This document shows, one piece after another, positions 2,980 to 44,907 of a stretch of DNA of 64,000 nt. Each line of letters opens with the position of its first letter. Within the stretch, counting starts at the first letter, position 1. The notes beneath the pieces are model-generated. The model was not told the origin of the DNA. It made no database searches and was given only the letters and a program-made list of their open reading frames with translations. Source of the DNA: Candidatus Shapirobacteria bacterium (GTDB taxonomy: Bacteria; Patescibacteriota; Microgenomatia; UBA12405); NCBI GenBank assembly GCA_041659325.1, contig JBAZYN010000002.1, forward strand, positions 140,906 through 204,905. The letters are read 5' to 3'. The position numbers and the translations under genes were made by a program.

Positions 2980-3010
2980 AGTTTTGAAACTAAGGTATTA
3001 TTAAAATAAT

Positions 3011-3721
3011 ATGCCGGTCGACCCATTAAAGATTGCGATTAAAGGAACAACTCAAGATCATCTGCCGATTGAGGATGTGATTGATGGGATTGTTCTTTTG
3101 AAGGACGGTTCGTGTGCCATGGTGATGCAACTGTCCTCGGTTAATTTTGATCTTTTGTCAGAAAGGGAGCAGTCGGCCCTGGTGTTTGCCTATGGGGGGA
3201 TTTTAAATTCATTGAATTTTCCGATTCAAATCGTAATCCAGACATCCACAAAAGATGTGACCTCGTATCTCAATAACCTAAAGGAGGCGGAGGGGAAACA
3301 GGTCAACACACTACTTCGGGAGCGAATTAAACAGTATCGGAAGTTTATAGAAGAGACAGTAAGAAAGAATGATGTGTTGTCAAAATCATTTTATGCGGTG
3401 GTTCCCTTTTCGATAATAGAGCTTGGGATTAAGTCAGCCTCGAAACAGATGGTGGGTAGCTTGCCTTTCATGAAACAACAAAGCGGTAGCTCCGGATTGC
3501 CGTTTACCAAAGAATATATTTTGGAAAAAGCAAAAGCGAGCCTGGAACCAAAGAGAGACCATTTGATAAGACTGTTCTCGCGGTTGGGACTGGAAATAAA
3601 AGTGTTGAATACAAAAGAATTAATCGAATTGTATTATAGGCTTTACAATGAAGAAACGGCCGCAAACCAAAAGATTCAGACGCTGAGTTACGGTACGCCG
3701 GTGGTTAATGCAAAAATATGA
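3011..3721 (+). CDS. VirB4 N-terminal-domain-like protein (short paralog of the VirB4 entry domain)
   Basis: No TM helix. The motif IEDVIDGIVLLKDGSCAMVMQLSSVNFDLLSEREQ parallels the DGLVSTKDIIAPGSLEV motif at the N-terminus of the downstream VirB4. Its stop overlaps the start of the next gene (ATGA). Confidence 0.4.
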   Translation: MPVDPLKIAIKGTTQDHLPIEDVIDGIVLLKDGSCAMVMQLSSVNFDLLSEREQSALVFAYGGILNSLNFPIQIVIQTSTKDVTSYLNNLKEAEGKQVNTLLRERIKQYRKFIEETVRKNDVLSKSFYAVVPFSIIELGIKSASKQMVGSLPFMKQQSGSSGLPFTKEYILEKAKASLEPKRDHLIRLFSRLGLEIKVLNTKELIELYYRLYNEETAANQKIQTLSYGTPVVNAKI

Positions 3722-6231
3722 TCAATTTTTTTAAAAAACCAGAAAAGAAGACTGAGGTGGCTCCGATTGCACCAACCGCCACGGAGAAGCAACAACCCGG
3801 ACAGAGGCAGTTTGTGGACGGATTGGTGTCGACGAAGGATATTATTGCGCCTGGATCGTTGGAAGTTGATTTTGAACATATAAGGATTGATGGTAAATAC
3901 TACAGGACATTGTTTATTACCGGATACCCGAGATTTGTTGGAATTAACTGGCTGTCGCCTTTGATTAATTTCGACGCGTCTCTGAATGTGTCGATGTTTA
4001 TTTACCCAACCGATGGAAAAGAGATTTTGGATGACTTAAGGCGAAAAATTGCGGAAATGGAGGCAGAAATTAACACAGATATCCAAAGAGGCCGGGTCGT
4101 AGACCCGTCCACACAGGCCAAGCTTGAGGATGCCCTAAATCTTCAGGCCGATCTGGTGAAGGGAGAAGAGAGATTTTTTCAGTTTGGACTATATGTGACA
4201 ATCTCAGCTACCTCAAAGGAAGAAATTAACAGGATTAATAAAAATCTTGAGGCGGCATTGGGAGCGCTGATGATAATCAGCAAAAAAGCTACTTTGCAAA
4301 TGGAAGAGGGTTTTATGAGCACACTTCCCCTTTGTTCTGACAAGCTGAATATTACCCGAAACATGGATACAACTTCTCTGGCAACAACTTTTCCGTTTGT
4401 CTCGTCTGATCTGTCTGACGACAAGGGAATAATGTATGGGATTAATGAGCATAACGGATCGTTGGTGATTTTTGACCGGTTTTCGATGCAAAACTATAAT
4501 TCGGTGGTTTTTGCCTCAGCCGGAGCAGGAAAATCATATTTGATTAAACTTGAGGCGATCCGGTCACTGATGTTGGGGACAGAGATTATCGTAATCGATC
4601 CGGAAAATGAATATAGGGATTTATGCGAAGCAGTGGGAGGGCAATATATTGCCTTTGGCTACGGAGAGGAATCCAAAATAAATCCTTTTGACCTGTCATT
4701 GGTGGTGGAAGAAGGAGAAAACGCGCTCAATTCTAAGATTTTGGCGCTTCATAAACTTTTTAAAATAATGATCGGGGCTATGGATCCGATCGAGGAGTCG
4801 ATTTTGGATAGGGCGGCAATGGATGCCTACAAAATGAAGGGAATCACGCCTGACATTGAAACCCAAACAAGGGAACCGCCACTGGTGGAAGATTTGTATA
4901 AATCGCTTATCGGGATGGAGGACAAGCAGGCTCAAAACCTGGCGGCAAGATTTGAAAAATACATCAAGGGATCTTTTGCGGGAATATTTAACCAAAAAAC
5001 GACGGTTAATTTGACCAATAAGTTTGTGGTTTTCGGAATAAGAAATTTGGAAGATGCTCTCCGGCCGGTAGCAATGCACATTATTCTTGACTATATCTGG
5101 ACGATAGTAAAAAAGACGCTAAAAAGAAGGATATTGATAGTGGATGAGGCGTGGTATCTCATGCAGTATGAGGATTCGGCGGCATTTTTGAGAGGAATTG
5201 TAAAGCGAGGGAGAAAATATTACATCGGAGTAACAACAATTACACAGGACGTTGACGATTTTCTGGCCACTCCTTACGGAAAAGAAATTGTAACTAATAG
5301 TGCCATTCAGATTCTTTTAAAACAGCACAGTGCGGCGATTGATCAGGTGGGCGATGTTTTTTATTTGTCGGAGGGGGAAAAACAGTTGCTGTTGACGGCC
5401 GATAAGGGCGAGGGAATATTTTTTGCCGGAAAAAATCATGTAGCGATCAGAGTAATAGCATCTGAGGATGAGCACCGGCTGATTACGTCAAACCCAGAAG
5501 AGATTCTGAAGATGAAAAACCAGGGGAAAAGTTTTGGACAAAGCCCGATACCTGAGCCAACGGTCGAGCCACCGGTGGCGCTGATTCCTACGACAGAAGC
5601 AAAGAAACCAGTAGAGGAAATAAAAAAACCTGAGATGGAAAGCAAGCCTCAGCAGGAAACTGCTGCCTTGGACAAAACTAAACTAGCACCGCAAATAGTA
5701 GCCATACCGAAAGAGAAGACTCCTGCGGAGGGAAAACCGGCAATGGGGACCATTTATCAGACGGTGGTGGAAACAAACAAACCAGATGAGCAGGAAGAAA
5801 TACTGAAAAAGAGACTGGCCGAAATGGCGGAACAGGAAAAAAATGAAATTAGCGAACACCGGAAAAAAATTGCCGAAGAAGAAAGGCAGAAAGCCGAGGC
5901 AGAAGCTAAAAGGATGGCAGAAACATCGTCTAGCTTGCCGAAATATCAGGACTTGTTTAAGTCATACACCCCGGCAAAAACGGCGGGGCAAACTAGCCCA
6001 CCACCAATAAAGACTGGGCCGCTTATAAAAAGTGAAACGGTTGGTAATAAACCATTGGTTTTGGAACCAAAAAGGCCTATTTTTTTAAACCAGGAAGAAC
6101 CAAAGATTCCCCAACCGCCACAACTTTCAAAAAAAACAAAACCGGTTTTTGAGGAGCCGAAGGAAGAGGTTAAGGCCGCCACCGATGACGGGAAAACAAA
6201 AATGGATTATGATAAGTTGTTTAGCAACTGA
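3718..6231 (+). CDS. virB4: type IV secretion ATPase VirB4/TrbE/PrgJ family, with a ~240-aa low-complexity P/E/K-rich C-terminal tail
   Basis: Has the VirB4 N-domain signature (KYYRTLFITGYPRFVGINWL), Walker A VVFASAGAGKSYL and Walker B RRILIVDEAWYLM. The tail from ~5500 onward is PEPTVEPP.../EEILKKRLAEMAEQEKNE... low-complexity sequence. Confidence 0.85.
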   Translation: MINFFKKPEKKTEVAPIAPTATEKQQPGQRQFVDGLVSTKDIIAPGSLEVDFEHIRIDGKYYRTLFITGYPRFVGINWLSPLINFDASLNVSMFIYPTDGKEILDDLRRKIAEMEAEINTDIQRGRVVDPSTQAKLEDALNLQADLVKGEERFFQFGLYVTISATSKEEINRINKNLEAALGALMIISKKATLQMEEGFMSTLPLCSDKLNITRNMDTTSLATTFPFVSSDLSDDKGIMYGINEHNGSLVIFDRFSMQNYNSVVFASAGAGKSYLIKLEAIRSLMLGTEIIVIDPENEYRDLCEAVGGQYIAFGYGEESKINPFDLSLVVEEGENALNSKILALHKLFKIMIGAMDPIEESILDRAAMDAYKMKGITPDIETQTREPPLVEDLYKSLIGMEDKQAQNLAARFEKYIKGSFAGIFNQKTTVNLTNKFVVFGIRNLEDALRPVAMHIILDYIWTIVKKTLKRRILIVDEAWYLMQYEDSAAFLRGIVKRGRKYYIGVTTITQDVDDFLATPYGKEIVTNSAIQILLKQHSAAIDQVGDVFYLSEGEKQLLLTADKGEGIFFAGKNHVAIRVIASEDEHRLITSNPEEILKMKNQGKSFGQSPIPEPTVEPPVALIPTTEAKKPVEEIKKPEMESKPQQETAALDKTKLAPQIVAIPKEKTPAEGKPAMGTIYQTVVETNKPDEQEEILKKRLAEMAEQEKNEISEHRKKIAEEERQKAEAEAKRMAETSSSLPKYQDLFKSYTPAKTAGQTSPPPIKTGPLIKSETVGNKPLVLEPKRPIFLNQEEPKIPQPPQLSKKTKPVFEEPKEEVKAATDDGKTKMDYDKLFSN

Positions 6232-6254
6232 TCCGGCTGAAATTGCTATAATCT

Positions 6255-9200
6255 TTGGTGATGGAGAGAAGAAAATTCGGACAGACGACGGCCAGATTCA
6301 GAACAATAAGCGACGTAATTGACGGGCTTCGACTGATTTTGGGGAGCAAAGACAGGAACCTTGAGGGTGATCCGGAGTTAATAAGAGCGATAGAAGCGGT
6401 CGGAATTAAAATTAACGCTGAAAAGCCCGGGCCGATTGAGGATATTGTAGAGAGGCTAGAACACCTGATGGCAACAGTCGAGGAGGAGGTTTTAAGTCGG
6501 CGAATTGAAGAAGCCTTTTCAACTGCCGAACAAGATCTCCGCAACGCAAGGATGCCAGCGGCGGAAATGAGAGCGCTACTAGAGGAATATGACAGACACC
6601 TTCAGGCGGGTTTGACACCTGACGAAGCAGCAAGGAGGGTTGAAAGGGAGAGTGGTAGAAAAATTACGGCACTTTTACAACGACGATACGAAATTCACCA
6701 GGAAAATGTAGCCAGTGGGGCGAAAGAAGGTCTGATTGAAAAAATCGTGACTGATGGGAGACTGGAATTGGAGATAGAGTTGGAGGCGGCCGGAGTGGAT
6801 AAAGATGCGGCGGAAGGAATTGCTGAGAAGATAGTTAAAAAAACTGTTTTAAATAAGGTACTTTCTGATGACATTCCTAAAATTGCAGAACAAGCGTTAG
6901 GTGTGGTGCCCCAAGGAGACATAAGAGACTATTCCAGAGAGATTGTGGTACAAAAATTTAAGGATATTACCGCCAAAATAGAAGTTGGTCCAAGAATCGA
7001 GAAAATAACAATAGATTTGGTAGATCAAATAATACAAGTCAAACCCAACGTAACTGCGGAGGAAGAGAAGGGGCTAAGAGAGGCGGTTGGAAAAGAGGTT
7101 ACGGAACAGGTCATGGGTGGTAACAGATTGGGGGAAGTTTCGGTGGATGCGGCAGAAACAGATAGAGGCGGCGTAAAGGGAACGCCAAAATTGTCTGAAC
7201 TAATTATTGATAATCTTGATTTACCGCCATCAAAGGTTGGCCTTGTCGAAAAAGCGGTCAGTGTCGCCAGTGTAGCGGCAATGGAGGAAGTGAATTATGG
7301 CCGCGCGGCAGAGTCTGTGGTTGAAGCGTTGGCTCAAATACCGGCGGTGCGGGACACGGTGAAAGCAAGAGCGGCTGAAATCACAAAAGTGGTGAAGGAA
7401 GAAATTCAAAAATCAGTAGCTGACGGTAATTTTGAAACAGTGGCGGGTAAGGTTGCGGAGAAAATCGATCCTGATTCCAGGTCTGGAGTAGCAATCGGGA
7501 TGGCGGTAGAGGAGGAGGTGGCGAGGGAATTGCAAAGATGGAGTCCTGGAAAAGTTGAGGCGATAACTAGAGTGTTTGTTGAAATGGGGCCAAAGGCAGA
7601 GGCAAAGATGACAGAGATAGAGGCAGCAGTGGTAGAAGAAAATGCTGCGAGAAAAGCAGATCCCCGGACGGTATTTTCGCGGATACAAAAAAGGGTTGGC
7701 GCTATATTGGAGATCCCCGAAAGCGATGCTCCGATAGTATCGGCGATGGCGAGGGCGGAGGAAAGAAGCAGACAGTGGGATAAGGCTAAGGCGGATCAGG
7801 TCGCCGACAGGCTAGTGACGGTATTGAAAACAGACAAGACTATTGCGGCCAAATTATCTCCAAGAGAAGAATCATTTAAATCGATGATAAGGCCGAAAAT
7901 GGAGGCGGCTGTTATTGAAGGTCTGCCCCTTGAAGAGAGTACAACCAAAAAACCACTAGCCAGAAACCTTACTGATAGAGTGGTAGTCCTGCTTGGGATA
8001 CCTGCGGAAAAAATACCGATGGTTAGGATGGCAGTAAAGAAGGCCGGAAAGGAAGTTGATTGGCTGATAATGTCTGACAGAGAAAATATAAAAATAATCA
8101 GACAGGAAGAGATCAGAAATCAAATAGAACTAGGAATAGTTCGAGCAAATAGGGGTGTTGTGCTGACGACTAACCAAATGAATGCCGTACACGAGTTTTC
8201 CGGATTTGTGGCTCGATTTCGGGGAGCAGAATCCGGCATAGAGCCTTATAAGGATGAGGCGGTAGCTTTTGCAGAAGGACGGGATTTACGCCCGGGGGTA
8301 ATTAATAACGCGTGGGGTGATTTAGCCAATATTACAAAAATCGTCCGGATGTCACCGAGTCAATTTAAAAAATTCAGTGATCAATATTATCGGTTGAAGG
8401 ATGGACTTGGAGGGCTAAAAGTGCCTTTTGAGTCTCCGGCGATAAGATCGCTTGACGGGGTAATGAGGTTTATAAAAGATAACCCTAAAGTCCAACATCT
8501 GTTGAACTTTGCCCAAAAATTTACCGGACTCTCAAACTCGATTGGCAGTTTTACCAACGGATTGGTTAAAAAGATTGGTTTGGAAAAGGCCGGAATATCG
8601 GTGATCGAAAAGATTGGCGGGCAGGCAATGGGAGAGTTTGTCCGACAATCACTGGTGGTGATAGGACAAAACGGAATGAGACAGGGATTGACGATGATCC
8701 TGAGGGGGATTATCGGCGGAGGGGTGAAAGCGGGATCGGTGGTTGGGGGCGGGACGGCCGGAGCACTGGCGGGGGCAGTGGCGGCTTTTCAGGCAGTGCC
8801 ACTGGTGGGGCAAATAATTTTGATAGGCGCCCTAGCGGTGGTGGGAATTAAAAAAGTTATAAAGCCGATTCTTGATAGATTTTTTAAACCAATTGCGGGA
8901 ATAATTGGTAATTTGGGATTGAATTTGGGGATTAAAAAGTTTTTTCAAGACAAATTTGGAAAAGGTTTTGGGTGGCTATTGGGAGCCGGAGCGACACTGG
9001 GGGTGATGATAGCAGCCGTTCCTATGGCCTTTGCCGGGTGGTGGGCGGCAACAATGGCTCTAATGTTTAGTAAGGTGATTGTGGCGGTCTTTATTGGCAT
9101 AATTACATTTTCTCTTATCACCTCGATTAATGTGTCGGCTCAGGTAACCAGGGGGCCGCCTTCGGGAGTAGAAGTGTATGATTATGGTAACGAGCCTTGG

Positions 9201-9689
9201 GAGATATTTGTTCCGAATTTACCGTTGCCCACAAGAGATCCCAGTATTGTTATTCCCGAAAGTTGCCCGGGGATATGGCCGACAGATTCCGGAGTGGTAA
9301 CCCAGGGACCACTGGGACAGTGGTCTCACCGAGGAACGCAGGCAATTGATATAAGTATTATATCCGGATCCCCAATCTATGCGACACATGACGGATTGGC
9401 TTTTCCGGGGGGCGGAAAAGGAAGTGGTTATGGATTTTATGTTGACGTGATGGGGGTATGTAATGGGGTCTCAATTATAACCAGATATGCGCATATGCCC
9501 CGTTTAATATTTACGGAGCAAAAATTAGTTAAACAAGGAGAAATAATCGGTTACGTTGATAACACGGGCAACTCGACAGGCCCCCATCTTCACTATGAGC
9601 TGACCGGCGGACAAATTAACGACTGGCTTCCGAAACCAGTACCTCTGAAATGCAGTCATTATTATGAATGTTTGGTTTCTATCCCCTAA
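6255..9689 (+). CDS. giant T4SS-associated cell-wall hydrolase: N-terminal helical region, Gly-rich multi-TM segment, C-terminal M23 (LytM) peptidase
   Basis: The C-terminus carries M23 motifs HRGTQAIDI ... GNSTGPHLHYEL. The TM block is GIIGGGVKAGSVVGGGTAGALAGAV.../LLGAGATLGVMIAAVPMAFAGWW. Its position after VirB4 parallels PrgK/TcpG/VirB1-type hydrolases. Confidence 0.75.
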   Translation: MVMERRKFGQTTARFRTISDVIDGLRLILGSKDRNLEGDPELIRAIEAVGIKINAEKPGPIEDIVERLEHLMATVEEEVLSRRIEEAFSTAEQDLRNARMPAAEMRALLEEYDRHLQAGLTPDEAARRVERESGRKITALLQRRYEIHQENVASGAKEGLIEKIVTDGRLELEIELEAAGVDKDAAEGIAEKIVKKTVLNKVLSDDIPKIAEQALGVVPQGDIRDYSREIVVQKFKDITAKIEVGPRIEKITIDLVDQIIQVKPNVTAEEEKGLREAVGKEVTEQVMGGNRLGEVSVDAAETDRGGVKGTPKLSELIIDNLDLPPSKVGLVEKAVSVASVAAMEEVNYGRAAESVVEALAQIPAVRDTVKARAAEITKVVKEEIQKSVADGNFETVAGKVAEKIDPDSRSGVAIGMAVEEEVARELQRWSPGKVEAITRVFVEMGPKAEAKMTEIEAAVVEENAARKADPRTVFSRIQKRVGAILEIPESDAPIVSAMARAEERSRQWDKAKADQVADRLVTVLKTDKTIAAKLSPREESFKSMIRPKMEAAVIEGLPLEESTTKKPLARNLTDRVVVLLGIPAEKIPMVRMAVKKAGKEVDWLIMSDRENIKIIRQEEIRNQIELGIVRANRGVVLTTNQMNAVHEFSGFVARFRGAESGIEPYKDEAVAFAEGRDLRPGVINNAWGDLANITKIVRMSPSQFKKFSDQYYRLKDGLGGLKVPFESPAIRSLDGVMRFIKDNPKVQHLLNFAQKFTGLSNSIGSFTNGLVKKIGLEKAGISVIEKIGGQAMGEFVRQSLVVIGQNGMRQGLTMILRGIIGGGVKAGSVVGGGTAGALAGAVAAFQAVPLVGQIILIGALAVVGIKKVIKPILDRFFKPIAGIIGNLGLNLGIKKFFQDKFGKGFGWLLGAGATLGVMIAAVPMAFAGWWAATMALMFSKVIVAVFIGIITFSLITSINVSAQVTRGPPSGVEVYDYGNEPWEIFVPNLPLPTRDPSIVIPESCPGIWPTDSGVVTQGPLGQWSHRGTQAIDISIISGSPIYATHDGLAFPGGGKGSGYGFYVDVMGVCNGVSIITRYAHMPRLIFTEQKLVKQGEIIGYVDNTGNSTGPHLHYELTGGQINDWLPKPVPLKCSHYYECLVSIP

Positions 9690-11096: not shown

Positions 11097-12221
11097 CTAG
11101 TCCTGAAGACGGACAGGCATAATGATGTGAGTCAGGTGCGGCTCGGACTGGTCATGAAAAAATCCCGGGGTCAAAGATTCATTAAGTTCGATGGTTATCC
11201 CCGAGCCTTTGGTGTTGGTTAAAAAATCAGAGACGAATTTGAAATTGAAAGCAATTTCCAAAGGATCCCCTTCAATTTTGGCCTCAACTGAGGCTTTGTT
11301 TTGACCAATTTGAGGAGCGTTGGCAGTTAATTCAAGAAGATTGTTTTTAACGGAAAAACGAACCACATTGGCAGACTCTCGGGCAAAAACCGAAGCGATT
11401 TTTATGGCCTGAAGTAATTCTTCGCGGTCGAGAGAAATTTTGGTGGCATAGGAGTCGGGGATGATTCTTTTGTAGTCGGGGTAGTCCCCTTCAATGAGCC
11501 GGGAAACTATCTCTAGATCGTCCAGGACAAAGACTACCTGGTGTTCGTCTGATGTTAAGCCAATGCGGATAGTTTTAGTGTTTTTAGCCAGTCTAGTGAC
11601 TTCGATAAGACTTTTGGCGGGGATGAGAAAAGTAAGGTTGTCAACGCCCGGTTTTAGTTTAATCGGATTGACAATTTTTATTTCTTTTAGGGAAAGGCGA
11701 AAACCGTCGGTGGCAACTAATTTCAGACTTTCGGGGGTAAATTGACAGAGAATTGAAGTTAGGACCGGCCTGGTGTCGTCGATGGCGGCAGAATAAGCAA
11801 TTTGGGAAATAGCCTGAGAGAGAACGGTCAAATCCAACTCGAAAGAAGTATCGGGATTAATACCAGGGATTTCGGGATAGTCGGCGGACAGAGTGGTGGC
11901 AAAACTGGATTCGGCCTTTGACGAAATTAAAGTGAGTAAATTATTTGGATTCAAATCTAAGTCTATTTTTCCGGTAGGTAAATATGAAACAAATTCAGTA
12001 ATCTCTTTGGCGGGAACGGTGATACTCCCCTCTTGGTCGATCTTGGCGCCAATCCAGTAATTAATGCCTAATTCAAGATTGGTGGCGGAAAGCCGGAGAC
12101 GGCCTTTGTCGGTAAACAAAAGGATATTGCCAAGAATAGGAAGTTGGGTTTTTGAAGAAACAAAGCGAGAAACGTGCCCCAAAGCGGTGTTTAGATTTTC
12201 TTGCAAAAGGGAGATTTTCAT
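11097..12221 (-). CDS. dnaN: DNA polymerase III beta subunit (sliding clamp)
   Basis: Opens MKISLLQENLNTALGHVSRFVSSKTQLPILGNILL with three-domain clamp architecture. Lies directly downstream of dnaA. Confidence 0.9.
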   Translation of the reverse strand: MKISLLQENLNTALGHVSRFVSSKTQLPILGNILLFTDKGRLRLSATNLELGINYWIGAKIDQEGSITVPAKEITEFVSYLPTGKIDLDLNPNNLLTLISSKAESSFATTLSADYPEIPGINPDTSFELDLTVLSQAISQIAYSAAIDDTRPVLTSILCQFTPESLKLVATDGFRLSLKEIKIVNPIKLKPGVDNLTFLIPAKSLIEVTRLAKNTKTIRIGLTSDEHQVVFVLDDLEIVSRLIEGDYPDYKRIIPDSYATKISLDREELLQAIKIASVFARESANVVRFSVKNNLLELTANAPQIGQNKASVEAKIEGDPLEIAFNFKFVSDFLTNTKGSGITIELNESLTPGFFHDQSEPHLTHIIMPVRLQD

Positions 12222-12469
12222 GCCTTATATTAACAGGAAAAGGAAGACTTAAGGAGGTGAAGTTTGAAGCGGTAAATAAAATACAAAGATTAGTTTACAA
12301 AATAGTAGTAGTTATTAGTAGAGAGGGTGGGTAAGTGAAGAAACAGTCTGAGGCAAGCTAGGAAAAAGGTTTATAAGTTTGAAATTTACGGACGATGTTG
12401 ATAAAAACGGGGGTGGCGTCTTATAAGGGCGGTTTAGGTTTGGGTAAACTTCGGGGGAAAAGGGGAAGA

Positions 12470-12600
12470 AAAGTTGTGGATAATAATGTGGATAAGTGGG
12501 GGCAAAATGTGGAAAACCAGAGACGGACTAAAAAGCGGACTTGATTTGGTTGATAACCGAACGGGTTTGTGGATTAGTGGATAAGTCGGTGTGGATTTTG
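12470..12600. promoter_or_regulatory. DnaA-box cluster between dnaA and dnaN (oriC part II)
   Basis: TTGTGGATAA at 12475-12484, TGTGGATAAG at 12487-12496 and TGTGGAAAA at 12508-12516. Degenerate copies GTGGATTAGTGGATAAG / TGTGGATTT lie at 12567-12598. TGTGGATAA is the reverse complement of the TTATCCACA consensus. Confidence 0.5.
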
Positions 12601-13883
12601 TCCCGGGCATGCATAATACTGGTGTGATCCCGACCACCTAAAAGCCGGCCAACTTCTTCGAGAGGCAGGTTGATTTCGGTGATTAAAAGGAAAGCGGTTA
12701 AGTGGCGGGCAGTGACCAGGTCTTTTTTGCGACTGGAACCACAAAGGTCGCCGGTTTTTATGCCGAAATGTTTGGCACAAACAGAGATAATATGCCGGGG
12801 AGTGATGTCATTTCTGGTGAGGGAGGAGGAGTTGTGGGATTGAGGTGAAAAATAATTTTGAACAAATTCAAGATCGATTTCGTCTATTTTTTGGGAGATA
12901 GATTGAATAATGATTTCCTGAAGCTTACCTTCGATATCTCTAATGTTTGAGGTGATGCTGTCGGCCATAAAATTAACGGCATCGGAATCGATTTTTATCC
13001 CCTTTTCTTCAGCTTTTTGTTTGATGATGGCGGCACGCATTTCGAAATCGGGCAGTTGGATGTCGACGGTCAGACCGCCCATAAAACGGGAGACAAGTCG
13101 GTCTTCGATTTTGTCAATGTCGGCGGGTTTACGGTCGGAGGTTAATACGACTTGTTTTCCGGCCATATGGAGGGCGTTGAAAGTGTGAAAAAATTCTTCC
13201 TGGATATATTCTTTTCCGGCCAAAAACTGAATGTCGTCGACCAGAATACAATCAAGGTTTCGATATTTGTCTTTGAACTTGTTCATGTCTTTGGACTTGA
13301 GGGCGCTTATTAGCTCATTGCCAAAAGTTTCGGCGGGAAAATATTTGACTTTTAAGTCGGGGTCTTTTTTTAAGAGCTCGTGGCCTATAGCCTGCATTAA
13401 ATGAGTCTTGCCTACCCCGACTCCACCCCAAATAAAAAACGGATTGTAGGCCAGACCCGGATTTTTTATGATCCCCTGGGCGGCGGCGTAGGCAAAATTA
13501 TTGCTGTTGCCGACAACCAGATTTTCAAAGGTATATTTCGGATGAAGATTGGAGAGAGGGGAACGGTTTTTTTGAGAACCGTAGTTGAACAAGGGAGAGT
13601 TGGCGAGGACGTCGCTATTTAAAATTGGTTCCTGAAGAATAAAATCAAGAGAGTTTTTGGTTTTTGTTTGATTATCCAGGGCGCTTTTGAAGAGATCGTA
13701 GTATCTTTTTTTGTTGATATCAACAAGATAGGTGTTGGGGCAAGCGATGGTAGCCTGATTTTCTTTTAGGGCAATGAGCTGAGTTTTGGCAACAAAGGTT
13801 TGGTAGACGGCCGGAGCCAGGACGACCTTTAGTTCTTCTCTTGCATTTTTCCAAATTCGCTCAATTTCGTGAAGAGGCGGCAT
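12528..13883 (-). CDS. dnaA: chromosomal replication initiator protein DnaA
   Basis: AAA+ Walker A NPFFIWGGVGVGKTHLMQAIG and Walker B LDCILVDDIQF. The C-terminus has a DnaA helix-turn-helix (GRDHTSIMHARDKI). Confidence 0.9.
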   Translation of the reverse strand: MPPLHEIERIWKNAREELKVVLAPAVYQTFVAKTQLIALKENQATIACPNTYLVDINKKRYYDLFKSALDNQTKTKNSLDFILQEPILNSDVLANSPLFNYGSQKNRSPLSNLHPKYTFENLVVGNSNNFAYAAAQGIIKNPGLAYNPFFIWGGVGVGKTHLMQAIGHELLKKDPDLKVKYFPAETFGNELISALKSKDMNKFKDKYRNLDCILVDDIQFLAGKEYIQEEFFHTFNALHMAGKQVVLTSDRKPADIDKIEDRLVSRFMGGLTVDIQLPDFEMRAAIIKQKAEEKGIKIDSDAVNFMADSITSNIRDIEGKLQEIIIQSISQKIDEIDLEFVQNYFSPQSHNSSSLTRNDITPRHIISVCAKHFGIKTGDLCGSSRKKDLVTARHLTAFLLITEINLPLEEVGRLLGGRDHTSIMHARDKIHTDLSTNPQTRSVINQIKSAF

Positions 13884-14100
13884 TAATTTTTTGATAGTTA
13901 AAAAATAACGACATCATCGATAAAATATAAACATTACACCAGGGGGATGGTTGACTTATCCACATGATGATAAAGGAGTTTTCCACAATTAACAATGTGT
14001 CAAATCAACTTCAAATTTAATTATTGTAATCAGTAATCTGTAATCAGTAATTGGTAATTGATGGTCGGTAATTGGTGATAAATATGTTAAGATAGGATTT
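13884..14100. promoter_or_regulatory. oriC part I: AT-rich unwinding region, DnaA boxes and GTAATNN array upstream of dnaA, divergent from rpmH
   Basis: Perfect TTATCCACA at 13966-13974 and TTTTCCACA at 13979-13987. AT-rich runs at 13884-13940 and 14009-14035. The position (dnaA divergent from rpmH-rnpA-yidC) is the canonical origin location. Confidence 0.55.
14036..14090. repeat. GTAATNN 7-nt-period tandem array (G1) in the origin region
   Basis: gtaatca gtaatct gtaatca gtaattg gtaattg atggtcg gtaattg gtgataa. Confidence 0.8.
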
Positions 14101-14232
14101 ATGATAGAAGGAAAACAAAAAGTAAAAAGCACAAAAAGAAAACAGGGGTTTTTAAGAAAGATGTCGACTCAGGACGGCAGAAATGTAATTAAAAGAAGAA
14201 GATCAGCGGGAAGAAAGAGATTGGCAAAATAG
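14101..14232 (+). CDS. rpmH: 50S ribosomal protein L34
   Basis: Not in the ORF track (43 aa). It reads MIEGKQKVKSTKRKQGFLRKMSTQDGRNVIKRRRSAGRKRLAK, matching the L34 pattern K/R-rich ... GFR.RM.T..GR.VL.RRR.KGR..L. Confidence 0.8.
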   Translation: MIEGKQKVKSTKRKQGFLRKMSTQDGRNVIKRRRSAGRKRLAK

Positions 14233-14245
14233 AGTAAAATAGTTT

Positions 14246-14572
14246 GTGCTCCAAAAAAAAGATAGGTTGACTAAAAAAAAGGATTTTCAGGACGTCAGGT
14301 TGAGAGGACGGATGATTCAGTCCCCTTTGTTTGGGTTGAATTACTTAAACTCAGAGAATGGAAATAAATTTGGTTTTATTATCTCCAAAAAGATTTCCAA
14401 GAGGGCGGTTGACAGAAACAGGATAAAAAGGCTATTGGCAGAAGGGGTACGGATGAATATGGATAAAATAAAGGTGGGAGTTTGGGGGGTTTTTTTGGCG
14501 AAAAAGACCTTGCTTGGAAAAAAATTTGAGGAAGTGGAGGGGGAGGTAAGAAAAGTATTTGGTAATCTGTAA
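14246..14572 (+). CDS. rnpA: ribonuclease P protein component
   Basis: 108 aa and basic. Carries the RNR-like motif (KRAVDRNRIKRLL). Sits between rpmH and yidD, the conserved order. Confidence 0.8.
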   Translation: MLQKKDRLTKKKDFQDVRLRGRMIQSPLFGLNYLNSENGNKFGFIISKKISKRAVDRNRIKRLLAEGVRMNMDKIKVGVWGVFLAKKTLLGKKFEEVEGEVRKVFGNL

Positions 14573-14636
14573 CCAGTAATTAGTAACTGGTAACCTACCT
14601 GTCGGCAGGCAGGTCTGTAATTGGTAATCGGTAATA
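14560..14636. repeat. GTAATNN array pair flanking a hairpin (G2) between rnpA and yidD
   Basis: ggtaatc tgtaacc agtaatt agtaact ggtaacc, then tACCTGtcggcaggCAGGTc, then tgtaatt ggtaatc ggtaata. Confidence 0.75.
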
Positions 14637-14848
14637 TATTAGAAATGAAGAAATTAATCCTAATAATATTGAGGTTTTATAAGAGATATATTTCACGTGG
14701 GTATATCTGCCGGATGATACCTAGCTGCTCTGAATATACATATGAAGCGGTAGAAAAATATGGGGTGGTTAAGGGATTGTGGTTGGGGGGGAAGAGGGTG
14801 GTGAGATGTAATCCCCGGGGAAAGGGCGGAATCGATCTGTTAAAATAG
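14621..14848 (+). CDS. yidD: membrane protein insertion efficiency factor YidD
   Basis: ISRGYICRMIPSCSEYTYEAVEKYG...RCNPRGKGGID is the YidD signature. The true start may be MKKL at 14645. Confidence 0.8.
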   Translation: MVIGNILEMKKLILIILRFYKRYISRGYICRMIPSCSEYTYEAVEKYGVVKGLWLGGKRVVRCNPRGKGGIDLLK

Positions 14849-17383: not shown

Positions 17384-18610
17384 ATGATGAAGAAGCCGAT
17401 TGTAAATACGGTAGTCCAGGTGTTGGGGAAGGTAGTAATGATTGGAGTAAGCCTGTTGACAACGGGTTTGTTGACTAGGGGTTTGGGAGTGGAAGGGTAT
17501 GGAAATTATATTTTGATCACCTCGGTATTTGTTTTAATTGACTCTTTGGCTGATTTTGGAACCAGGATTATCGGGATTAAGGAGGCGGCGGGCGCTGAGA
17601 GCGAGAATGAGAAAAGACGAATATGGGTTCAGATTATGTGGCTACGACTTTTATTGACAGGATCGGCGTTTGTGGCAGGACTGGGGTTGGTGTTTTTTTG
17701 GCGGGGTTTTTCGGGTATCAGACTTGAAGCGGGGGTGGCACTTCTTATGATTTGGTTTACTTCGGTGGCCGGAAGTATAGAGGTCGTGTGGCAGACTCGG
17801 ATGCAGATGTGGGTGAAAGTGTTGGCGGAAACAATATTTCCGGTAATGTTTTTGGGACTGCTGTATTCTGTTTCCGGGCCATTGAACCTGTTTTTGGTGT
17901 TTGGATGTGTGTTGGTGTCAAGAGCTATCAGTCTGGCTTTGGGGTTAAAGGCGGTGTTTTTTGTAATCGACCGAAAGCAGATAAAACCGATAGATTTTGG
18001 GTTTGTTAAAAAAATGTTTATTTTGGCCTGGCCGATGGGGTTGTATCTTCTGATTTTTTCGTCGTATGACCGGGCAGTGGACTCAATGATGATCGAGAGG
18101 ATGGTGGGGGTAAGAGAAGTAGCCTGGTACGGACTTTCGTACAAAATATACTCTACTCTATTGCAACCGGCATACTTTTTTGTCGGAAGTATATTTCCTT
18201 TGTTGTCGGGGAAAAGTGTAGCGGGTGGCAAAAAAAGATTAGTGGGAGTTTCTTTGGGGCTATTGGTTTTGGGAGCGGGAGTGGTGATAACGAGTGTGTA
18301 TTTTTTGGCGCCGTGGATTGTTGCGGTACTAGCGGGTTCTGAGTATGGTGAATCGGCGGTGATTTTGAGGTATTTGCTAGGGGCGGTGTTTTTTTCATAC
18401 CTTGGTCATTTGGCCGGGTTTACACTAATATCCAGGGGTAAACAGAAAACCATGCTAGTTTTTGGGGTGATAGTTTTGGTGTTTAATGTGGTGGCCAACC
18501 TGGTGGCGATACCGCGTTTTGGAGTTTACGGAGCGGCGGGAGTGACGGTAATGACTGAAGCTTTGGGGAGTATTTTGATGATAGGGACATTGGTAATTAG
18601 TAATCGGTAA
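17384..18610 (+). CDS. polysaccharide/oligosaccharide flippase (Wzx/MOP superfamily)
   Basis: A 12-14-TM protein with Wzx-like N-terminal features (VLGKVVMIGVSLLTTGLLTRGLGVEGYGNY). Confidence 0.6.
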   Translation: MMKKPIVNTVVQVLGKVVMIGVSLLTTGLLTRGLGVEGYGNYILITSVFVLIDSLADFGTRIIGIKEAAGAESENEKRRIWVQIMWLRLLLTGSAFVAGLGLVFFWRGFSGIRLEAGVALLMIWFTSVAGSIEVVWQTRMQMWVKVLAETIFPVMFLGLLYSVSGPLNLFLVFGCVLVSRAISLALGLKAVFFVIDRKQIKPIDFGFVKKMFILAWPMGLYLLIFSSYDRAVDSMMIERMVGVREVAWYGLSYKIYSTLLQPAYFFVGSIFPLLSGKSVAGGKKRLVGVSLGLLVLGAGVVITSVYFLAPWIVAVLAGSEYGESAVILRYLLGAVFFSYLGHLAGFTLISRGKQKTMLVFGVIVLVFNVVANLVAIPRFGVYGAAGVTVMTEALGSILMIGTLVISNR

Positions 18611-18633
18611 TCTGTAATCTGTAATGTGTGGCG
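18591..18633. repeat. GTAATNN array (G3) at the flippase gene 3' end, abutting its terminator
   Basis: ggtaatt agtaatc ggtaatc tgtaatc tgtaatg. Confidence 0.75.
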
Positions 18634-18795: not shown

Positions 18796-18840
18796 CAAAA
18801 TCTACCCCTATCCCCTCCTTTGAAGAAAGGAGGGGAACAA
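18796..18840. repeat. palindromic element (P8), intergenic
   Basis: aaatctacccctatCCCCTCCTTTGAAGAAAGGAGGGGaacaag, near-identical to P6. Confidence 0.8.
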
Positions 18841-19005: not shown

Positions 19006-22000
19006 ATGAATTCGTCGGGGCCAGTGGCAATAGTTTATGGAATAGAAAAATTTGGAGCGAAGTTTTTGGTAAAGGAATTGCTGCTTAAAGATATATATGT
19101 GGTAGGAGTGGGAGAATATGTGTCGGGGATAGAGGAAAATGATAATTTTAGGTGGGTGGCGGGGAGAGGGGATTATGAGGGGAAGGTGAATTATGTTTTT
19201 GATTTTGAGGGAGATAAAAATATTTTTGATTTAGTTTTGAAGAACTCGGCTAAATTAACAGAGATATGCATTAACGACCAAAAAAAAGCGGAAAGAATAA
19301 AAAACGACTTGATTGGGGCGAATATTAACTGGAGGCTAATAGATGCACGGGGGGTGTATGGCCCGGGGATGGCAGATGATGGGGGAGGGAGGACCGGAAT
19401 TAATTTTTTAGTTGAGGCGGTGTCGGGGGCGGTGAAGAATGAAAATTTGGTTTTGCCGGCTTTGGGAACAAAGTTCAGGTTGTTGAATATTGTGGATTTG
19501 ACCGAAGTGGTTTTGAGGGCAAGCTTTTTATCGGGAACCGAGAAGGAGGAATATGTGATATTTGGCAATGAGAGTGACTCGGGGGAAGTAGCAAAGGTGT
19601 TGATTGATGAGGCAAAGATGACTAAGTTTAAGGTGGTCCAGAAGGATTATAAGTTTGAGACTCCAGGTAAGTATGAGATAGAAGAGAACTGGAGAAAATT
19701 ACGATGGCATCCCGGGGTGGAATTTAGAGAGGGAGTGGTGGAAACTTTGCAGTATTTTTTTTCGGTAATTGATGAAGAAAGCAGGAAAAAAATGAAAGAG
19801 GGGTCGAAAGCCAATAAGTCCAAAAGTCTGAAAGTCCAAAAGTCTGAAAGTCAGAAAATAAAAAAGGAGAAGAATTTATCGAGGTTTGAGGTGATGGTGG
19901 AGGAGGAAAAAACCAATTACGAATTACCAATTACCCACCCCGGCGGGCAGGCGAATTACGAATTAGAAAAAGATAAAAAAGAGACGGTAAGAAAGAATGA
20001 GGTGAGTAGGGAGGCAGAAGAAAGGAAAGCAGAAAAATACAAAAAGGAAATAGAGGAAGAATTTAAAAGGGCAAAAGAGAAAGAAGAGGAAAAAAAGGCG
20101 AAGGAGGAGATAATTTATAGTGAAGAGATTAAATCTTTGGCAAAACAATATACCCAAACCACACCACTGGAGAGAGATGAAGTGATAGAAGAGGACGAGG
20201 AAAGGATAGAGATAAAAAACGAGCTAAAAGACGGGCCTGCCCGCCTCGGTGGGTTAATCGGCAGGCAGGTTGAAAGTAGTAAAACGAGAGAAAAAAAAGG
20301 CGGGACAGGAATAATAAACTTTAAAAAGATCGGATTTTTGGTGATGATTATTTTGGGGTTGGGGATGTTTTCGATTCCGGTCGGGTGGGGGATAAAGGTG
20401 GTGGCCGGGATTAAAAATATCTCTAAAATCAGGGAATATATTGAGGAAGAAAAATACGCTGAGGCTGACAAAAAAGCAGAGACGACGATTGCCGGTTTGA
20501 AAAAAATCGACAACCAGATCGATGATTGGGGGCTAAATAGGATGAAGACTTTTAGGAATTTACAGACTGGGCTAAAGGTAGAGGAGGGAGTGTTGGTGAT
20601 TGAGAAAAAGGCGATTCCGATAGCGGAAGCAATGGAAAAAGTTAGCGGGGCGATTTTTGATGATAAAGAGATTTCCTGGGAAAGTGAACTTGAAGTTCTA
20701 AATAAAGGCATGGTGGAGGTTGATACTGAGATTGGGTTGCTGCAGGCTAGGCTTAATGGTGACTGGAACTGGTTGCCAGCCCGATTCCGACCGGAAGTGC
20801 AGAAGGGGATTAAAAGCTTAAACATGGCCAGATCGGTAATAGGAACTTCAAGGAAGGGACTGAATATCTTGAAAGAGTTTTTGGGAAGTGACGGAAAAAG
20901 GAGAGAATACCTGGTACTGTTTCAAAACGAAAATGAGCTTCGGGCAGGCGGAGGGTTTATCGGGTCGTGGGGGATGCTGAGTTTTGAGGGGGGAAAACTG
21001 CTTAACCTGGATATAAGGGACGTTTATGAGGCAGACGGACAGTTGAAAGGCCATGTTGAACCGCCGGCGGAAATTAAACAGTACCTGGGGGAGGCGGGGT
21101 GGTTTTTGAGAGATTCTAACTGGAAGGTGGATTTTGTGGATGCCAATAAGGATATTGAGTGGTTTTTGGAGAAGGAGACGGGAAGAAAGGTGGATGGGGT
21201 GATAGGGATTAATTTGGCGGTGGCCAAGGCGATACTGGATGTTACCGGGCCGATCTACGTGGTTGATTTTGGTGAAAAAATAGGTAAAGACAACCTATAT
21301 GAACAAGCTCAATTTTATGCAGAAAATAAGTTTTTCCCCGGCTCTAAACAGAAGGCTAGCTTTTTGGGGGGACTGGGAAGACAGTTGTTTGAAGAAATCA
21401 GGAATTTGGATTCGAAAAAGATGCTGGAGCTATATCTCCAAATATTAGAGCAGTTTGATAAAAACGAAATCCAACTGGTAATGCATGAAAAGCAGGCGGC
21501 GAAAATTGCGGCAGATTTGGGGTGGGACGGGGCGATATACCAGGGAAAGTGCCTGACTGACCGGTGTTATGCCGATTATTTGTATTTGTCAGAATCTAAC
21601 TTTGGAGTGAACAAGGCCAATTATTATATATACAGAGGGATTGAGCAGACGGTTGATATTACCCAAATGGCCATCAGCAGGGTGCTGAAAATTAACTACG
21701 AGAACACGGCGAAAAATAAAAGTTGGCCGGGTGGGGATTATAAAAATTATTTGAGGGTTTATATACCACAAGATACGAATCTGGCGGAGGTGAGTATTTC
21801 GGATTCGGCACAACCAGGAAAGAAATCGGTGGTGGGGGCAGGGGAGATGAAGATATCACAAATTTATAATAAAAAAGAAATAGGATTTTTAGTGCCGGTA
21901 CCGGTGGGGCAGAAAAGAACTGTAGAGATTAGATACGTAAGTAAAATTGATTTGGGGATAAAGGATAAATTCTCGTACCTTGGGTATATCCAGAAACAGT

Positions 22001-22670: not shown

Positions 22671-22705
22671 AAGTCTCCCTTGTCAAAGGGAGATTTAGAG
22701 GGATT
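22671..22705. repeat. palindromic element (P2), inverted relative to P1, just upstream of the DUF559 start
   Basis: aagTCTCCCTTGTCAAAGGGAGAtttagagggatt, the reverse complement of the aatccctctaaatctccctttgacaagggagactt consensus. Confidence 0.8.
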
Positions 22706-44838: not shown

Positions 44839-44907
44839 CAACGTAAGAACGTACAATTTTGCAAAGCAAAACGTTACGTCCAACGTTGTTAGGATAAATC
44901 CACAACT

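What the first reader, a model, noticed from the sequence alone, without database searches (positions are those of the whole stretch)
12470..14100. Bipartite replication origin with DnaA-box clusters both upstream of dnaA and between dnaA and dnaN
Perfect and near-perfect TTATCCACA boxes occur at 13966-13974 and 13979-13987, upstream of dnaA and next to AT-rich tracts. A second cluster (TTGTGGATAA, TGTGGATAAG, TGTGGAAAA, plus degenerate copies extending into the dnaA 3' end) lies between dnaA and dnaN. This resembles the Bacillus-type split oriC. The upstream part also contains a GTAATNN 7-mer array (14036-14090) whose role is unknown; it may be origin-associated.
Basis: partly seen in the sequence, partly recalled or inferred. 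Interest (0 to 1): 0.5.

Follow-up and report, generated by a model that had tools for sequence, protein, structure and literature searches.

The report
Conserved dnaA-linked origin without skew flip
The DnaA-binding sites around dnaA are real and mark a Bacillus-like chromosome replication origin conserved across a group of tiny uncultured (CPR) bacteria, but the usual reversal of strand composition at an origin is missing, which leaves open how these chromosomes are copied.

Summary
The window comes from a Candidatus Shapirobacteria MAG (CPR/Microgenomates). The DnaA boxes are real: the only three perfect TTATCCACA sites in 64 kb all flank dnaA. One stated coordinate is 10 nt off.

**dnaA–dnaN spacer.** In about 70 relatives this spacer keeps a B. 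subtilis incC-like layout:
- a distal array of co-oriented boxes;
- a proximal box pair, a 4-nt spacer, CTA-type DnaA-trios and AT-rich DNA next to dnaN.

I read this as the unwinding half of oriC.

**Upstream pair.** These are two boxes 23 bp apart bracketing a −10-like TATNAT. They look like an autoregulated dnaA promoter. A role as a second origin half is possible but untested.

**GTAATNN array.** It is a dispersed intergenic repeat and is not origin-specific.

**GC skew.** Skew does not change sign here, anywhere in the window, or within ±10 kb of dnaA in about 55 species. Four-fold-site skew does step at the locus in the origin-like direction in about 94% of loci.

**Verdict.** This is an ordinary origin type in an unusual genomic context. 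The replication mode (unidirectional or bidirectional) is unresolved.

The parts
12528..13883 (-). dnaA (451 aa)
   Evidence: Pfam finds Bac_DnaA, Bac_DnaA_C and DnaA_N. The best solved-structure match is 8BTG, B. subtilis DnaA in the BUS complex (E = 1.5e-89, full length). The GGRDHTSIMHA motif is visible in the translation.
11097..12221 (-). dnaN (374 aa)
   Evidence: All three DNA_pol3_beta domains are found.
12222..12527 (-). dnaA-dnaN spacer, proposed unwinding half of oriC
   Evidence: The architecture is conserved in relatives. No Rfam family matches here.
12568..12584 (-). two overlapping 1-mismatch DnaA boxes inside the dnaA 3' end (TAATCCACA, TTATCCACT)
   Evidence: Found. They are conserved at -56/-48 relative to the dnaA stop in many relatives.
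12475..12516 (-). distal array of three co-oriented boxes: TTTTCCACA 12508-12516, TTATCCACA 12487-12495, TTATCCACA 12475-12483
   Evidence: Found. They are conserved at +12/+33/+45 after the dnaA stop with spacings of 21 and 12 bp.
12438..12462 (-). conserved TTTTCCCCCGAAGTTTACCCAAAC block, probably two further weak boxes
   Evidence: Seen. In some relatives it reads TTATCCCCC or TTTTCCACC, and TTACCCAAA.
12420..12427 (.). conserved palindromic CTTATAAG motif, role unknown
   Evidence: One search shows the consensus (C/A)TTATAAG(A/C)C in nearly all relatives.
12326..12343 (-). proximal box pair: TTACCCACC (12334-12326, 2 mismatches) preceded by the degenerate TTCTTCACT
   Evidence: BUS rule scan. 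Alignment A1 has the consensus ..TCCAC|TTATCCACC.
12303..12325 (-). 4-nt spacer CTCT followed by DnaA-trio-like CTACTAATAACTACTACTA (3'-GAT-5' type trios on the + strand)
   Evidence: Seen. ACTACT is nearly invariant across 38 aligned sequences, down to 44% DnaA identity.
12262..12317 (.). AT-rich candidate unwinding element
   Evidence: The least stable 40-mer of the spacer is 12277-12317, at the 99.8th percentile of the window. The 40 nt after the trios are 65-94% AT in relatives.
13956..13987 (+). upstream box pair TTATCCACA (13956-13964) and TTTTCCACA (13979-13987), 23 bp apart and antisense to dnaA
   Evidence: Found. The 33-nt block is conserved in 43 relatives by blastn-short and at fixed spacing.
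13967..13995 (-). promoter-like site TTGTTA-17-TATCAT reading towards dnaA, with one box in the spacer and one just downstream of the -10
   Evidence: One search gives a 9/12 consensus match only. A -10-like TATNAT between the boxes is conserved in relatives.
14026..14074 (+). GTAATNN heptamer array; NOT part of the origin
   Evidence: Seen. The same kind of array occurs upstream of other genes in the window and in unrelated contigs.

Best explanation
**Origin.** The dnaA-dnaN spacer (12222-12527, extending about 60 nt into the dnaA 3' end) is the DnaA-dependent chromosome origin of this Shapirobacteria genome. It is built like B. subtilis incC.

**Proposed steps.**
1. DnaA occupies a distal array of five to seven co-oriented boxes just after dnaA.
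2. By looping or by raising local concentration, DnaA is fed to a proximal box pair (TTCTTCACT / TTACCCACC).
3. From there a DnaA-ATP oligomer extends across the 4-nt spacer onto the CTA-type trios (12303-12321).
4. The adjoining AT-rich DNA (about 12262-12317), directly in front of dnaN, then melts.

**Upstream pair.** The two boxes at 13956-13987 bracket the -10 of a promoter-like site reading into dnaA. They most likely mediate autorepression of dnaA. They may also serve as a second origin half, as incAB does in Bacillus.

**Shown and inferred.**
- Shown: the sequence elements, their statistics and their conservation.
- Inferred: DnaA binding, unwinding and promoter activity.

**Replication mode.** The origin sits in a chromosome whose G/C strand bias never changes sign.
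- The flanking genes on both sides, and the G-rich strand, all point from dnaN towards rpmH.
- The favoured, unproven reading is therefore that most replication leaves oriC through dnaA towards rpmH and returns to oriC from the dnaN side. That would be unidirectional or strongly asymmetric replication.
- Bidirectional replication plus an unexplained uniform strand bias is the main alternative.
For: **Box statistics.**
- The only three perfect boxes in 64 kb flank dnaA. Nine of 34 near-boxes lie in 242 nt.
- Box density in relatives is about 20-fold above background, and over 100-fold for perfect boxes. Position, spacing and orientation are fixed.

**BUS anatomy.**
- Scanning with the Pelliciari 2021 rules finds one candidate region, on the dnaA-sense strand of the dnaA-dnaN spacer. 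It abuts the least stable DNA of that spacer.
- The module is found in 59 of 71 relatives. It aligns down to relatives with 44% DnaA identity.
- The two-subregion layout, with distal boxes at least 44 bp from a proximal pair next to the trios, matches the functional dissection of incC (PMC6669920).
- The window's DnaA is closest to B. subtilis DnaA of the BUS cryo-EM complex.

**Compositional discontinuity.**
- Four-fold-site skew of same-orientation flank genes steps by +0.14 to +0.16, in the direction expected at an origin, in 45/48 to 47/50 loci.
- Dummy boundaries give about 0 in three cases and +0.065 in one.
- L054 and L067 show the jump at dnaA|dnaN on a near-zero baseline.

**Skew context.** Other Microgenomates have monotonic whole-chromosome skew (PMC7143001). 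The missing sign change therefore does not argue for an origin elsewhere.
Against: - **No sign change.** GC skew does not change sign at the locus, in the 64-kb window, or within +/-10 kb in about 55 species.
- **Head-on island.** dnaA and dnaN form a two-gene island opposite to all flanking genes and lie on the C-rich strand. That is unusual for origin-proximal essential genes.
- **The step may be a gene-content effect.** The flanks are largely syntenic, and one control boundary also shows a smaller consistent shift.
- **The trio block is imperfect in the window.** It carries a 1-nt phase shift relative to most relatives, and the proximal box has 2 mismatches.
- **Overlap with the dnaN promoter.** The box-trio module lies directly upstream of the putative dnaN core promoter, so a purely transcriptional role is not excluded.
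- **Opposite polarity in a distant lineage.** That lineage has the same layout but the opposite polarity of the uniform bias. This is awkward for a simple model in which unidirectional replication gives a G-rich leading strand with co-oriented genes.
- **No experiments.** Nothing here has been tested at the bench.
Confidence: 0.72

Rival explanations
1. This is a true bipartite origin. The upstream pair (13956-13987) is a required second half of oriC, like incAB in B. subtilis or oriC1 in H. pylori, and not only a promoter operator.
For: - Box clusters lie on both sides of dnaA, and both are conserved in position and orientation.
- In B. subtilis and H. pylori both halves are essential in vivo although only one unwinds (PMC6669920).
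- The 33-nt upstream block is the most conserved non-coding sequence in the neighbourhood, found in 43 loci.
Against: - There are only two boxes, against many in incAB (from memory).
- They bracket a conserved -10-like hexamer and overlap a promoter-like site reading into dnaA. That is the classical autoregulation geometry.
- There are no trios or BUS candidate.
- The distance from the pair to the dnaA start varies widely among relatives, from -23 to -219 nt.
Confidence: 0.3
2. The boxes are regulatory or titrating sites only. They would control dnaA and dnaN transcription or act as a datA-like sink, with the real origin elsewhere on the chromosome, as in E. coli where oriC is 42 kb from dnaA.
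For: - There is no skew sign change, and gene orientation is continuous across the locus.
- dnaA-dnaN are head-on to the inferred fork direction.
- The box-trio module sits just upstream of the dnaN start region.
Against: - The complete BUS grammar plus a distal box array is conserved across lineages down to 44% DnaA identity. This exceeds what a promoter operator needs.
- E. coli, from memory, has no such cluster between dnaA and dnaN.
- In published complete genomes of other Microgenomates with this kind of skew there is no sign change anywhere (PMC7143001). 'Elsewhere' therefore has no positive support.
- A reproducible skew step maps to this locus.
Confidence: 0.13
3. This is a canonical bidirectional origin. 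Replication leaves the dnaA-dnaN spacer in both directions as usual. The large uniform G/C bias comes from an unrelated genome-wide strand-specific process and merely masks the normal sign change, leaving a step.
For: - The step has the canonical direction and a similar size (+0.15 to +0.3) whatever the baseline. Examples are Shapirobacteria (-0.55 to -0.40), L054 (about -0.3 to about 0), L067 (about -0.1 to +0.13) and the opposite-polarity group (+0.07 to +0.14).
- The polarity of the uniform component is uncoupled from gene orientation and from oriC orientation between lineages.
Against: - No known process gives one DNA strand of a bidirectionally replicated circle a uniform bias that is independent of gene orientation. 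Minus-strand genes carry the same + strand bias.
- At least 9-12 kb of genes on the dnaN side would all be head-on to the outgoing fork.
- The step could be a gene-content effect.
Confidence: 0.3

Closest known systems
Bacillus subtilis oriC (incAB upstream of dnaA, incC between dnaA and dnaN) and its basal unwinding system (BUS)
   Same: - The synteny is the same: rpmH | dnaA - dnaN.
- The unwinding region lies between dnaA and dnaN.
- Co-oriented boxes fall into a distal and a proximal subregion, followed by a short spacer, 3'-GAT-5' type trios and AT-rich DNA next to dnaN (PMC6669920, PMC8287927).
- The DnaA is closest to the B. subtilis protein in 8BTG.
   Different: - The upstream part has two boxes only and looks like a promoter operator.
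- The spacer between the distal and proximal subregions is longer, about 140 nt, and variable.
- Conserved extra motifs (CTTATAAG, TTTTCCCCCGAA) have no known counterpart.
- GC skew does not reverse at the locus, and dnaA-dnaN are antisense to all their neighbours.
Helicobacter pylori bipartite oriC1-dnaA-oriC2
   Same: Box clusters lie on both sides of dnaA, with unwinding in the downstream part (PMC6669920 introduction; PMC8235120 abstract).
   Different: H. pylori is not flanked by dnaN. Whether the upstream part here binds DnaA cooperatively with the downstream part is unknown.
Autoregulated dnaA promoters (E. coli, B. subtilis; established knowledge, recalled from memory)
   Same: DnaA boxes overlap the core promoter of dnaA, so the initiator represses its own gene.
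   Different: Promoter activity here is inferred from a 9/12 consensus match and conservation only.
Microgenomates chromosomes with monotonic cumulative GC skew (Ch65 CP047901, Collierbacteria, Beckwithbacteria; Kadnikov et al. 2020, PMC7143001)
   Same: - One strand is strongly G-rich. The window has 28.3% G and 15.3% C; Ch65 has 29.8% C and 15.0% G.
- The bias is independent of gene orientation, and no sign change is seen.
   Different: - That paper did not analyse dnaA or oriC, and it does not mention Shapirobacteria.
- Only 64 kb of this genome and +/-10 kb of relatives could be examined here, so monotonic skew over the whole chromosome is inferred for this lineage, not shown.
Unidirectionally replicating chromids of Pseudoalteromonas (PMC7858055)
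   Same: They have a single-sign skew across the replicon, with origin and terminus adjacent.
   Different: - They are RepA/plasmid-type replicons, not DnaA/oriC main chromosomes.
- Their dif lies next to ori, whereas no dif-like site could be recognised here.

Membership tests
Basal unwinding system (BUS) origin, Pelliciari et al. 2021 | DnaA box with at most 2 mismatches to TTATCCACA, optionally paired with a second box of at most 4 mismatches | tested here: met
   TTACCCACC (2 mismatches, 12334-12326) is preceded by TTCTTCACT. The alignment consensus is ..TCCAC|TTATCCACC.
Basal unwinding system (BUS) origin, Pelliciari et al. 2021 | Spacer of 0-16 bp between the box and the first trio | tested here: met
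   The window has a 4-nt spacer, CTCT. Relatives have 3-4 nt, or 12 nt where the weaker box intervenes.
Basal unwinding system (BUS) origin, Pelliciari et al. 2021 | At least three consecutive trios with a central A on the bound strand (consensus 3'-GAT-5') | tested here: met
   The window reads CTA CTA ATA, then one extra base, then CTA CTA CTA TTT on the box strand. Most relatives read CTA-nTA-ACA-nTA-CTA-CTn-TTT, with 6 of 7 in phase. Which strand carries the trios relative to the box orientation was taken from my recollection of the B. subtilis incC and E. coli R1/DUE sequences.
Basal unwinding system (BUS) origin, Pelliciari et al. 2021 | DnaA-ATP dependent strand separation of this DNA | not testable with these tools
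   This needs purified DnaA and a strand-separation assay.
Bacillus-type bipartite oriC | DnaA-box clusters both upstream of dnaA and between dnaA and dnaN | tested here: met
   Shown. The upstream cluster has only two boxes.
Bacillus-type bipartite oriC | Unwinding region between dnaA and dnaN with distal and proximal box subregions | tested here: met
   The distal array lies at 12475-12516, with weaker sites extending it to about 12438-12584. The proximal pair lies at 12326-12343, about 140 nt away. This compares with PMC6669920.
Bacillus-type bipartite oriC | Both halves required in cis for origin function | not testable with these tools
   This is a genetic test only. The organism is uncultured.
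Skew-defined replication origin | GC skew changes sign (cumulative skew minimum) at the locus | tested here: not met
   Skew on the + strand is +0.15 to +0.49 in every 2-kb window. GC3 skew is positive for genes of both orientations on both sides. There is no sign change within +/-10 kb in about 55 species. Only a step in magnitude is seen.
Autoregulated dnaA promoter | DnaA boxes overlapping the -35/-10/+1 region of a promoter reading into dnaA | tested here: inconclusive
   TTGTTA-17-TATCAT lies on the dnaA strand, with one box in the spacer and one just downstream. TATNAT between the boxes is conserved. The -35 is weak in relatives, and there are no transcript data.
Microgenomates with monotonic whole-chromosome skew (Kadnikov 2020) | Cumulative GC skew monotonic over the complete chromosome | not testable with these tools
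   Only 64 kb of the 335,373-bp source contig is readable. Within that, skew is monotonic.

The most novel reading that the evidence does not exclude
In Shapirobacteria and neighbouring Microgenomates, a canonical DnaA/BUS-type oriC drives essentially unidirectional theta replication of the whole roughly 1-Mb main chromosome. The origin and terminus would then coincide at the dnaA-dnaN spacer. The single productive fork would leave through dnaA towards rpmH and return through the T4SS-like cluster and dnaN. The small origin-type step in skew would reflect a short-lived or occasional second fork.
Probability: 0.3. Interest if true: 0.75.

Novelty: new member of a known kind. Interest (0 to 1): 0.45.

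Why it matters
**The origin itself is ordinary.** It is a Bacillus/BUS-type dnaA-linked oriC, now documented for a CPR lineage with unusually clear comparative support.

**What is unusual is the setting.**
- The genome's strand bias is as strong as the published Ch65 case.
- That bias never reverses at the one place where a conserved initiator-binding and unwinding module sits.
- This pins down where to look, at window position about 12.3 kb. It turns a five-year-old puzzle, monotonic GC skew in Microgenomates, into a simple test: does metagenomic read depth fall away from this site on one side only or on both?

**Two further observations constrain any explanation.**
- A reproducible origin-type step in four-fold-site skew occurs without a sign change.
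- A sister lineage shows the opposite polarity of the uniform bias around an identically organised origin.

Tried and rejected
1. **Reading the source contig beyond the window.**
   - Look-ups of the first and last window proteins and of DnaA returned only short Logan contigs.
   - Whole-chromosome skew could therefore not be computed.
2. **Heptamer-array pattern as a probe.** I used the single metagenome scan to sample many positions along long related contigs.
   - It returned mostly short, unrelated, unskewed contigs.
   - This was useless for the skew question, but it shows the arrays are a widespread repeat type.
3. **DnaA homologue search from the opposite-polarity group.** The aim was to find the published complete Beckwithbacteria, Collierbacteria or Ch65 genomes.
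   - None was identifiable among the best 120 hits.
   - A 964,590-bp contig was found, but only +/-10 kb around dnaA is readable.
4. **dif search as a marker of a terminus next to the origin.** The best matches to E. coli and B. subtilis dif (sequences recalled from memory) are at chance level. The dif sequence for CPR is unknown, so this is uninformative.
5. **Unbiased search for conserved non-coding DNA in the flanks.** It found only the two dnaA-flanking spacers and dispersed hairpin repeats, with no terminus candidate.
6. **Structured RNA in the spacers.** There are no Rfam matches apart from a chance-level hit inside dnaN.
7. **Heptamer array as part of the origin.** Rejected.
8. **Walking along long contigs by repeated protein searches.** I considered this and rejected it as too costly for about 10 kb per step.
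Full report
**What is there.** Pfam confirms the gene order dnaN (11097-12221, -), dnaA (12528-13883, -), rpmH (14101-14232, +), rnpA, yidD, yidC and jag. The closest relatives are Candidatus Shapirobacteria MAGs (Microgenomates, CPR), with DnaA at most 76% identical. The source is an NCBI Shapirobacteria MAG contig of 335,373 bp.

**Boxes in the window.** A scan for TTATCCACA finds three perfect sites in 64 kb. Two are in the dnaA-dnaN spacer (12475-12483 and 12487-12495, - strand) and one is upstream of dnaA (13956-13964, + strand). One-mismatch sites lie at 12396, 12508, 12568 and 12576 (-) and at 13979 (+).
The description is otherwise accurate.
- The clustering is far beyond chance. Nine of 34 near-boxes lie in 0.38% of the window (P about 8e-15). 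All three perfect boxes lie in the two spacers (P about 5e-7).
- No other intergenic cluster exists in the window.

**Conservation.** In the 80 related loci, oriented on dnaA, the synteny yidC-rnpA-rpmH | dnaA-dnaN always holds.
- Box density is 8.1/kb upstream of dnaA and 10.3/kb in the dnaA-dnaN spacer, against 0.48/kb elsewhere. Perfect boxes run at about 3/kb against 0.024/kb.
- The sites keep their position and orientation. The upstream pair is 23-24 bp apart and antisense to dnaA. A triplet sits at +12/+33/+45 after the dnaA stop, in the sense orientation. Two more sites lie inside the dnaA 3' end.

**Anatomy of the dnaA-dnaN spacer.** Read in the dnaA direction, nearly all relatives show this order:
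1. three tandem boxes;
2. TTTTCCCCCGAA-NN-TTACCCAAA, two weaker boxes that are closer to consensus in some species;
3. a palindromic CTTATAAG motif;
4. a variable stretch of about 100 nt;
5. a box-like pair;
6. a 3-4 nt spacer;
7. CTAnTAA...ACTACTrTT;
8. 65-94% AT DNA running into the dnaN start.

My crude pattern finds the last module in 59 of 71 spacers. A MAFFT alignment of 38 sequences gives the consensus TCCAC|TTATCCACC-nnCC-CTAnTAACAnnACTACTnTTTT, with ACTACT almost invariant. The alignment includes relatives with 44-45% DnaA identity.

The published BUS rules require a box with at most 2 mismatches, a spacer of at most 16 bp and at least three NAN trios (PMC8287927). Applied to both spacers on both strands of the window, they give candidates only on the dnaA-sense strand of the dnaA-dnaN spacer. 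The best is TTACCCACC (12334-12326), then CTCT, then CTA-type trios (12321-12303). It abuts the least stable 40-mer of the spacer, 12277-12317, at the 99.8th percentile of the window.

This matches the functional dissection of B. subtilis incC. That region lies between dnaA and dnaN and has seven boxes in a distal and a proximal subregion plus the trios. The distal boxes act at 44 bp or more, probably by looping (PMC6669920). That the CTA repeats lie on the same strand as 5'-TTATCCACA-3' in B. subtilis is my recollection of the incC sequence, not a tool result.

The window's DnaA is most similar to B. subtilis DnaA of the BUS cryo-EM entry 8BTG (E = 1.5e-89). It keeps the GGRDHT..HA motif of domain IV (the motif's significance is from memory). 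No Rfam family matches the spacers.

**The upstream pair.** The two boxes lie in the most conserved non-coding block of the neighbourhood. Thirty-three nucleotides are found in 43 loci, with the consensus TTGAYNTCTTT...TGTGGAAAA-ctcatTTATTATta-TGTGGATAA.
- The promoter scan reports TTGTTA-17-TATCAT on the dnaA strand (13995-13967). One box lies in the spacer and the other just downstream of the -10.
- That is the geometry of an autorepressed dnaA promoter. The match is only 9/12, and the -35 is weak in relatives.
- No BUS candidate exists here.
- I therefore regard 'bipartite' as possible but not demonstrated.

**The heptamer array.** GTAAYNN arrays occur at six or more further places in the window, mostly 15-30 nt upstream of + strand start codons. 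A second family of AAAGTCTN octamer arrays behaves in the same way.
- Relatives carry other species-specific 7-8-mer arrays in the same kinds of spacer.
- Five-unit GTAANNN arrays are common in unrelated metagenome contigs with no strand skew.
- The array is not origin-specific.

**The skew problem.**
- In the window, the + strand skew is +0.15 to +0.49 in every 2-kb window, and the cumulative curve rises monotonically.
- GC3 skew on the + strand is positive for genes of both orientations. This includes dnaA (+0.52), dnaN (+0.44) and all genes to their left. The bias is therefore a property of the strand and not of transcription direction.
- Overall the + strand has 28.3% G and 15.3% C.
- The same holds in relatives. 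There is no sign change within +/-10 kb of dnaA in about 55 Shapirobacteria species.
- dnaA-dnaN form a two-gene island antisense to almost all flanking genes on both sides.
- The rRNA and tRNA genes of the window are also on the G-rich strand.

Read literally, the refutation criterion is met. However, Kadnikov et al. 2020 reported that complete Microgenomates genomes (Ch65, a Collierbacteria, a Beckwithbacteria) have a near-linear cumulative skew over the whole chromosome. Ch65 has 29.8% C and 15.0% G. The authors suggested a co-located origin and terminus, or unidirectional theta replication. They did not examine dnaA or oriC (PMC7143001). I found no follow-up. In such genomes the sign of skew cannot locate an origin.

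**A residual origin signal.** I used only four-fold degenerate sites of genes with the flank orientation.
- Skew on the dnaA-sense strand is less negative beyond dnaN than on the rpmH side, by +0.14 to +0.16. This holds in 45/48 to 47/50 loci (P of 1e-10 or below).
- Dummy boundaries inside the flanks give -0.01, +0.01 and +0.02 (not significant), and +0.065 in one case.
- The direction is that of a canonical origin.
- L054 and L067 have little or no uniform bias, and the jump at dnaA|dnaN is visible directly.
- The flanks are largely syntenic, so a gene-content effect cannot be excluded. I count this as supportive, not decisive.

**An unexplained twist.** A more distant lineage (L075-L081 and L204; DnaA 42-46% identical) has the same gene layout, the same box array and the same BUS-type module. 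Its uniform bias has the opposite polarity.
- In that lineage 81% of coding bases lie on the C-rich strand, against 22% in Shapirobacteria.
- The uniform bias is therefore not tied to gene orientation or to the orientation of oriC.
- This fits neither simple model comfortably. Those models are unidirectional replication with a G-rich leading strand, and bidirectional replication plus an unknown bias.

**Verdict.**
The dnaA-dnaN spacer is very probably the origin's unwinding region (confidence about 0.7).
- The upstream pair is probably a dnaA operator.
- The heptamer array is irrelevant to the origin.
- The origin type is known. The interesting part is its coexistence with a strand bias that never reverses. 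That makes a read-depth test of unidirectional against bidirectional replication straightforward.
- Whole-chromosome skew and coverage could not be obtained with the tools and caps available.

Noticed in passing
window 14026-14074, 14562-14596, 14617-14637, 18593-18627, 51849-51876, 53434-53461 (+), 19914-19934 (-); octamers at 19817-19856, 39249-39288, 44909-44940, 49652-49723: There are two families of short tandem arrays, GTAAYNN heptamers and AAAGTCTN octamers. They lie mostly 15-30 nt upstream of + strand start codons. Relatives carry different species-specific 7-8-mer arrays in equivalent spacers. Their function is unknown; they could be promoter-proximal elements or protein-binding arrays.
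   Followed up: partly
window 2038-9689, and L204 12780-16652: A T4SS-like cluster lies directly beyond dnaN and antisense to it. It comprises a PrgI-like gene, a TraC-like gene, a VirB4/TraG P-loop ATPase and a 1144-aa M23 hydrolase. The same neighbourhood is kept in the distant opposite-polarity lineage, so origin-dnaN-T4SS is an old linkage.
   Followed up: partly
loci L075-L081 and L204 compared with the window: The lineage with 42-46% DnaA identity has the same origin layout but the opposite sign of the uniform GC skew. Most of its genes lie on the C-rich strand, whereas Shapirobacteria have most genes on the G-rich strand.
   Followed up: partly
window 18798-18836 and 22674-22694; relatives' spacers: There are dispersed GC-rich hairpin repeats, CCCCTCCTTT-GAAG-AAAGGAGGGG and TCTCCCTTGTCAAAGGGAGA. 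They also recur in intergenic regions of many relatives and resemble REP elements or terminators.
   Followed up: no
window 44338-49423: tRNA-Ile, tRNA-Ala, 23S rRNA (45077-47994) and 5S rRNA (49307-49423) all lie on the + strand. No 16S gene is found in the window. A LAGLIDADG endonuclease ORF (48075-48659) lies between 23S and 5S.
   Followed up: no
window 12222-12240 and 14080-14100; relatives' dnaN starts: A conserved GTTAAKATA-N-AGG-N3-5-ATG motif lies immediately before the dnaN and rpmH start codons. It could be a -10 element almost at the start codon, which would suggest leaderless or very short-leader mRNAs.
   Followed up: no
window 12420-12427 and 12438-12462: The palindromic CTTATAAG motif and the TTTTCCCCCGAA block inside the origin spacer are conserved in nearly all relatives. 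Neither has a counterpart that I know of in described origins. They may bind another factor.
   Followed up: no
window 12251-12260: A perfect Shine-Dalgarno-like TAAGGAGGTG lies on the + strand, antisense to the dnaN leader, followed by a 3-codon ORF. On the dnaN mRNA it would read as an anti-SD-like CACCUCCUUA. It is not conserved in relatives and may be chance.
   Followed up: no
window 42947-43316: Tandem repeats of 24, 48 and 78 nt lie inside an 821-aa ORF with weak cohesin and dockerin matches. It is probably a repetitive surface protein.
   Followed up: no
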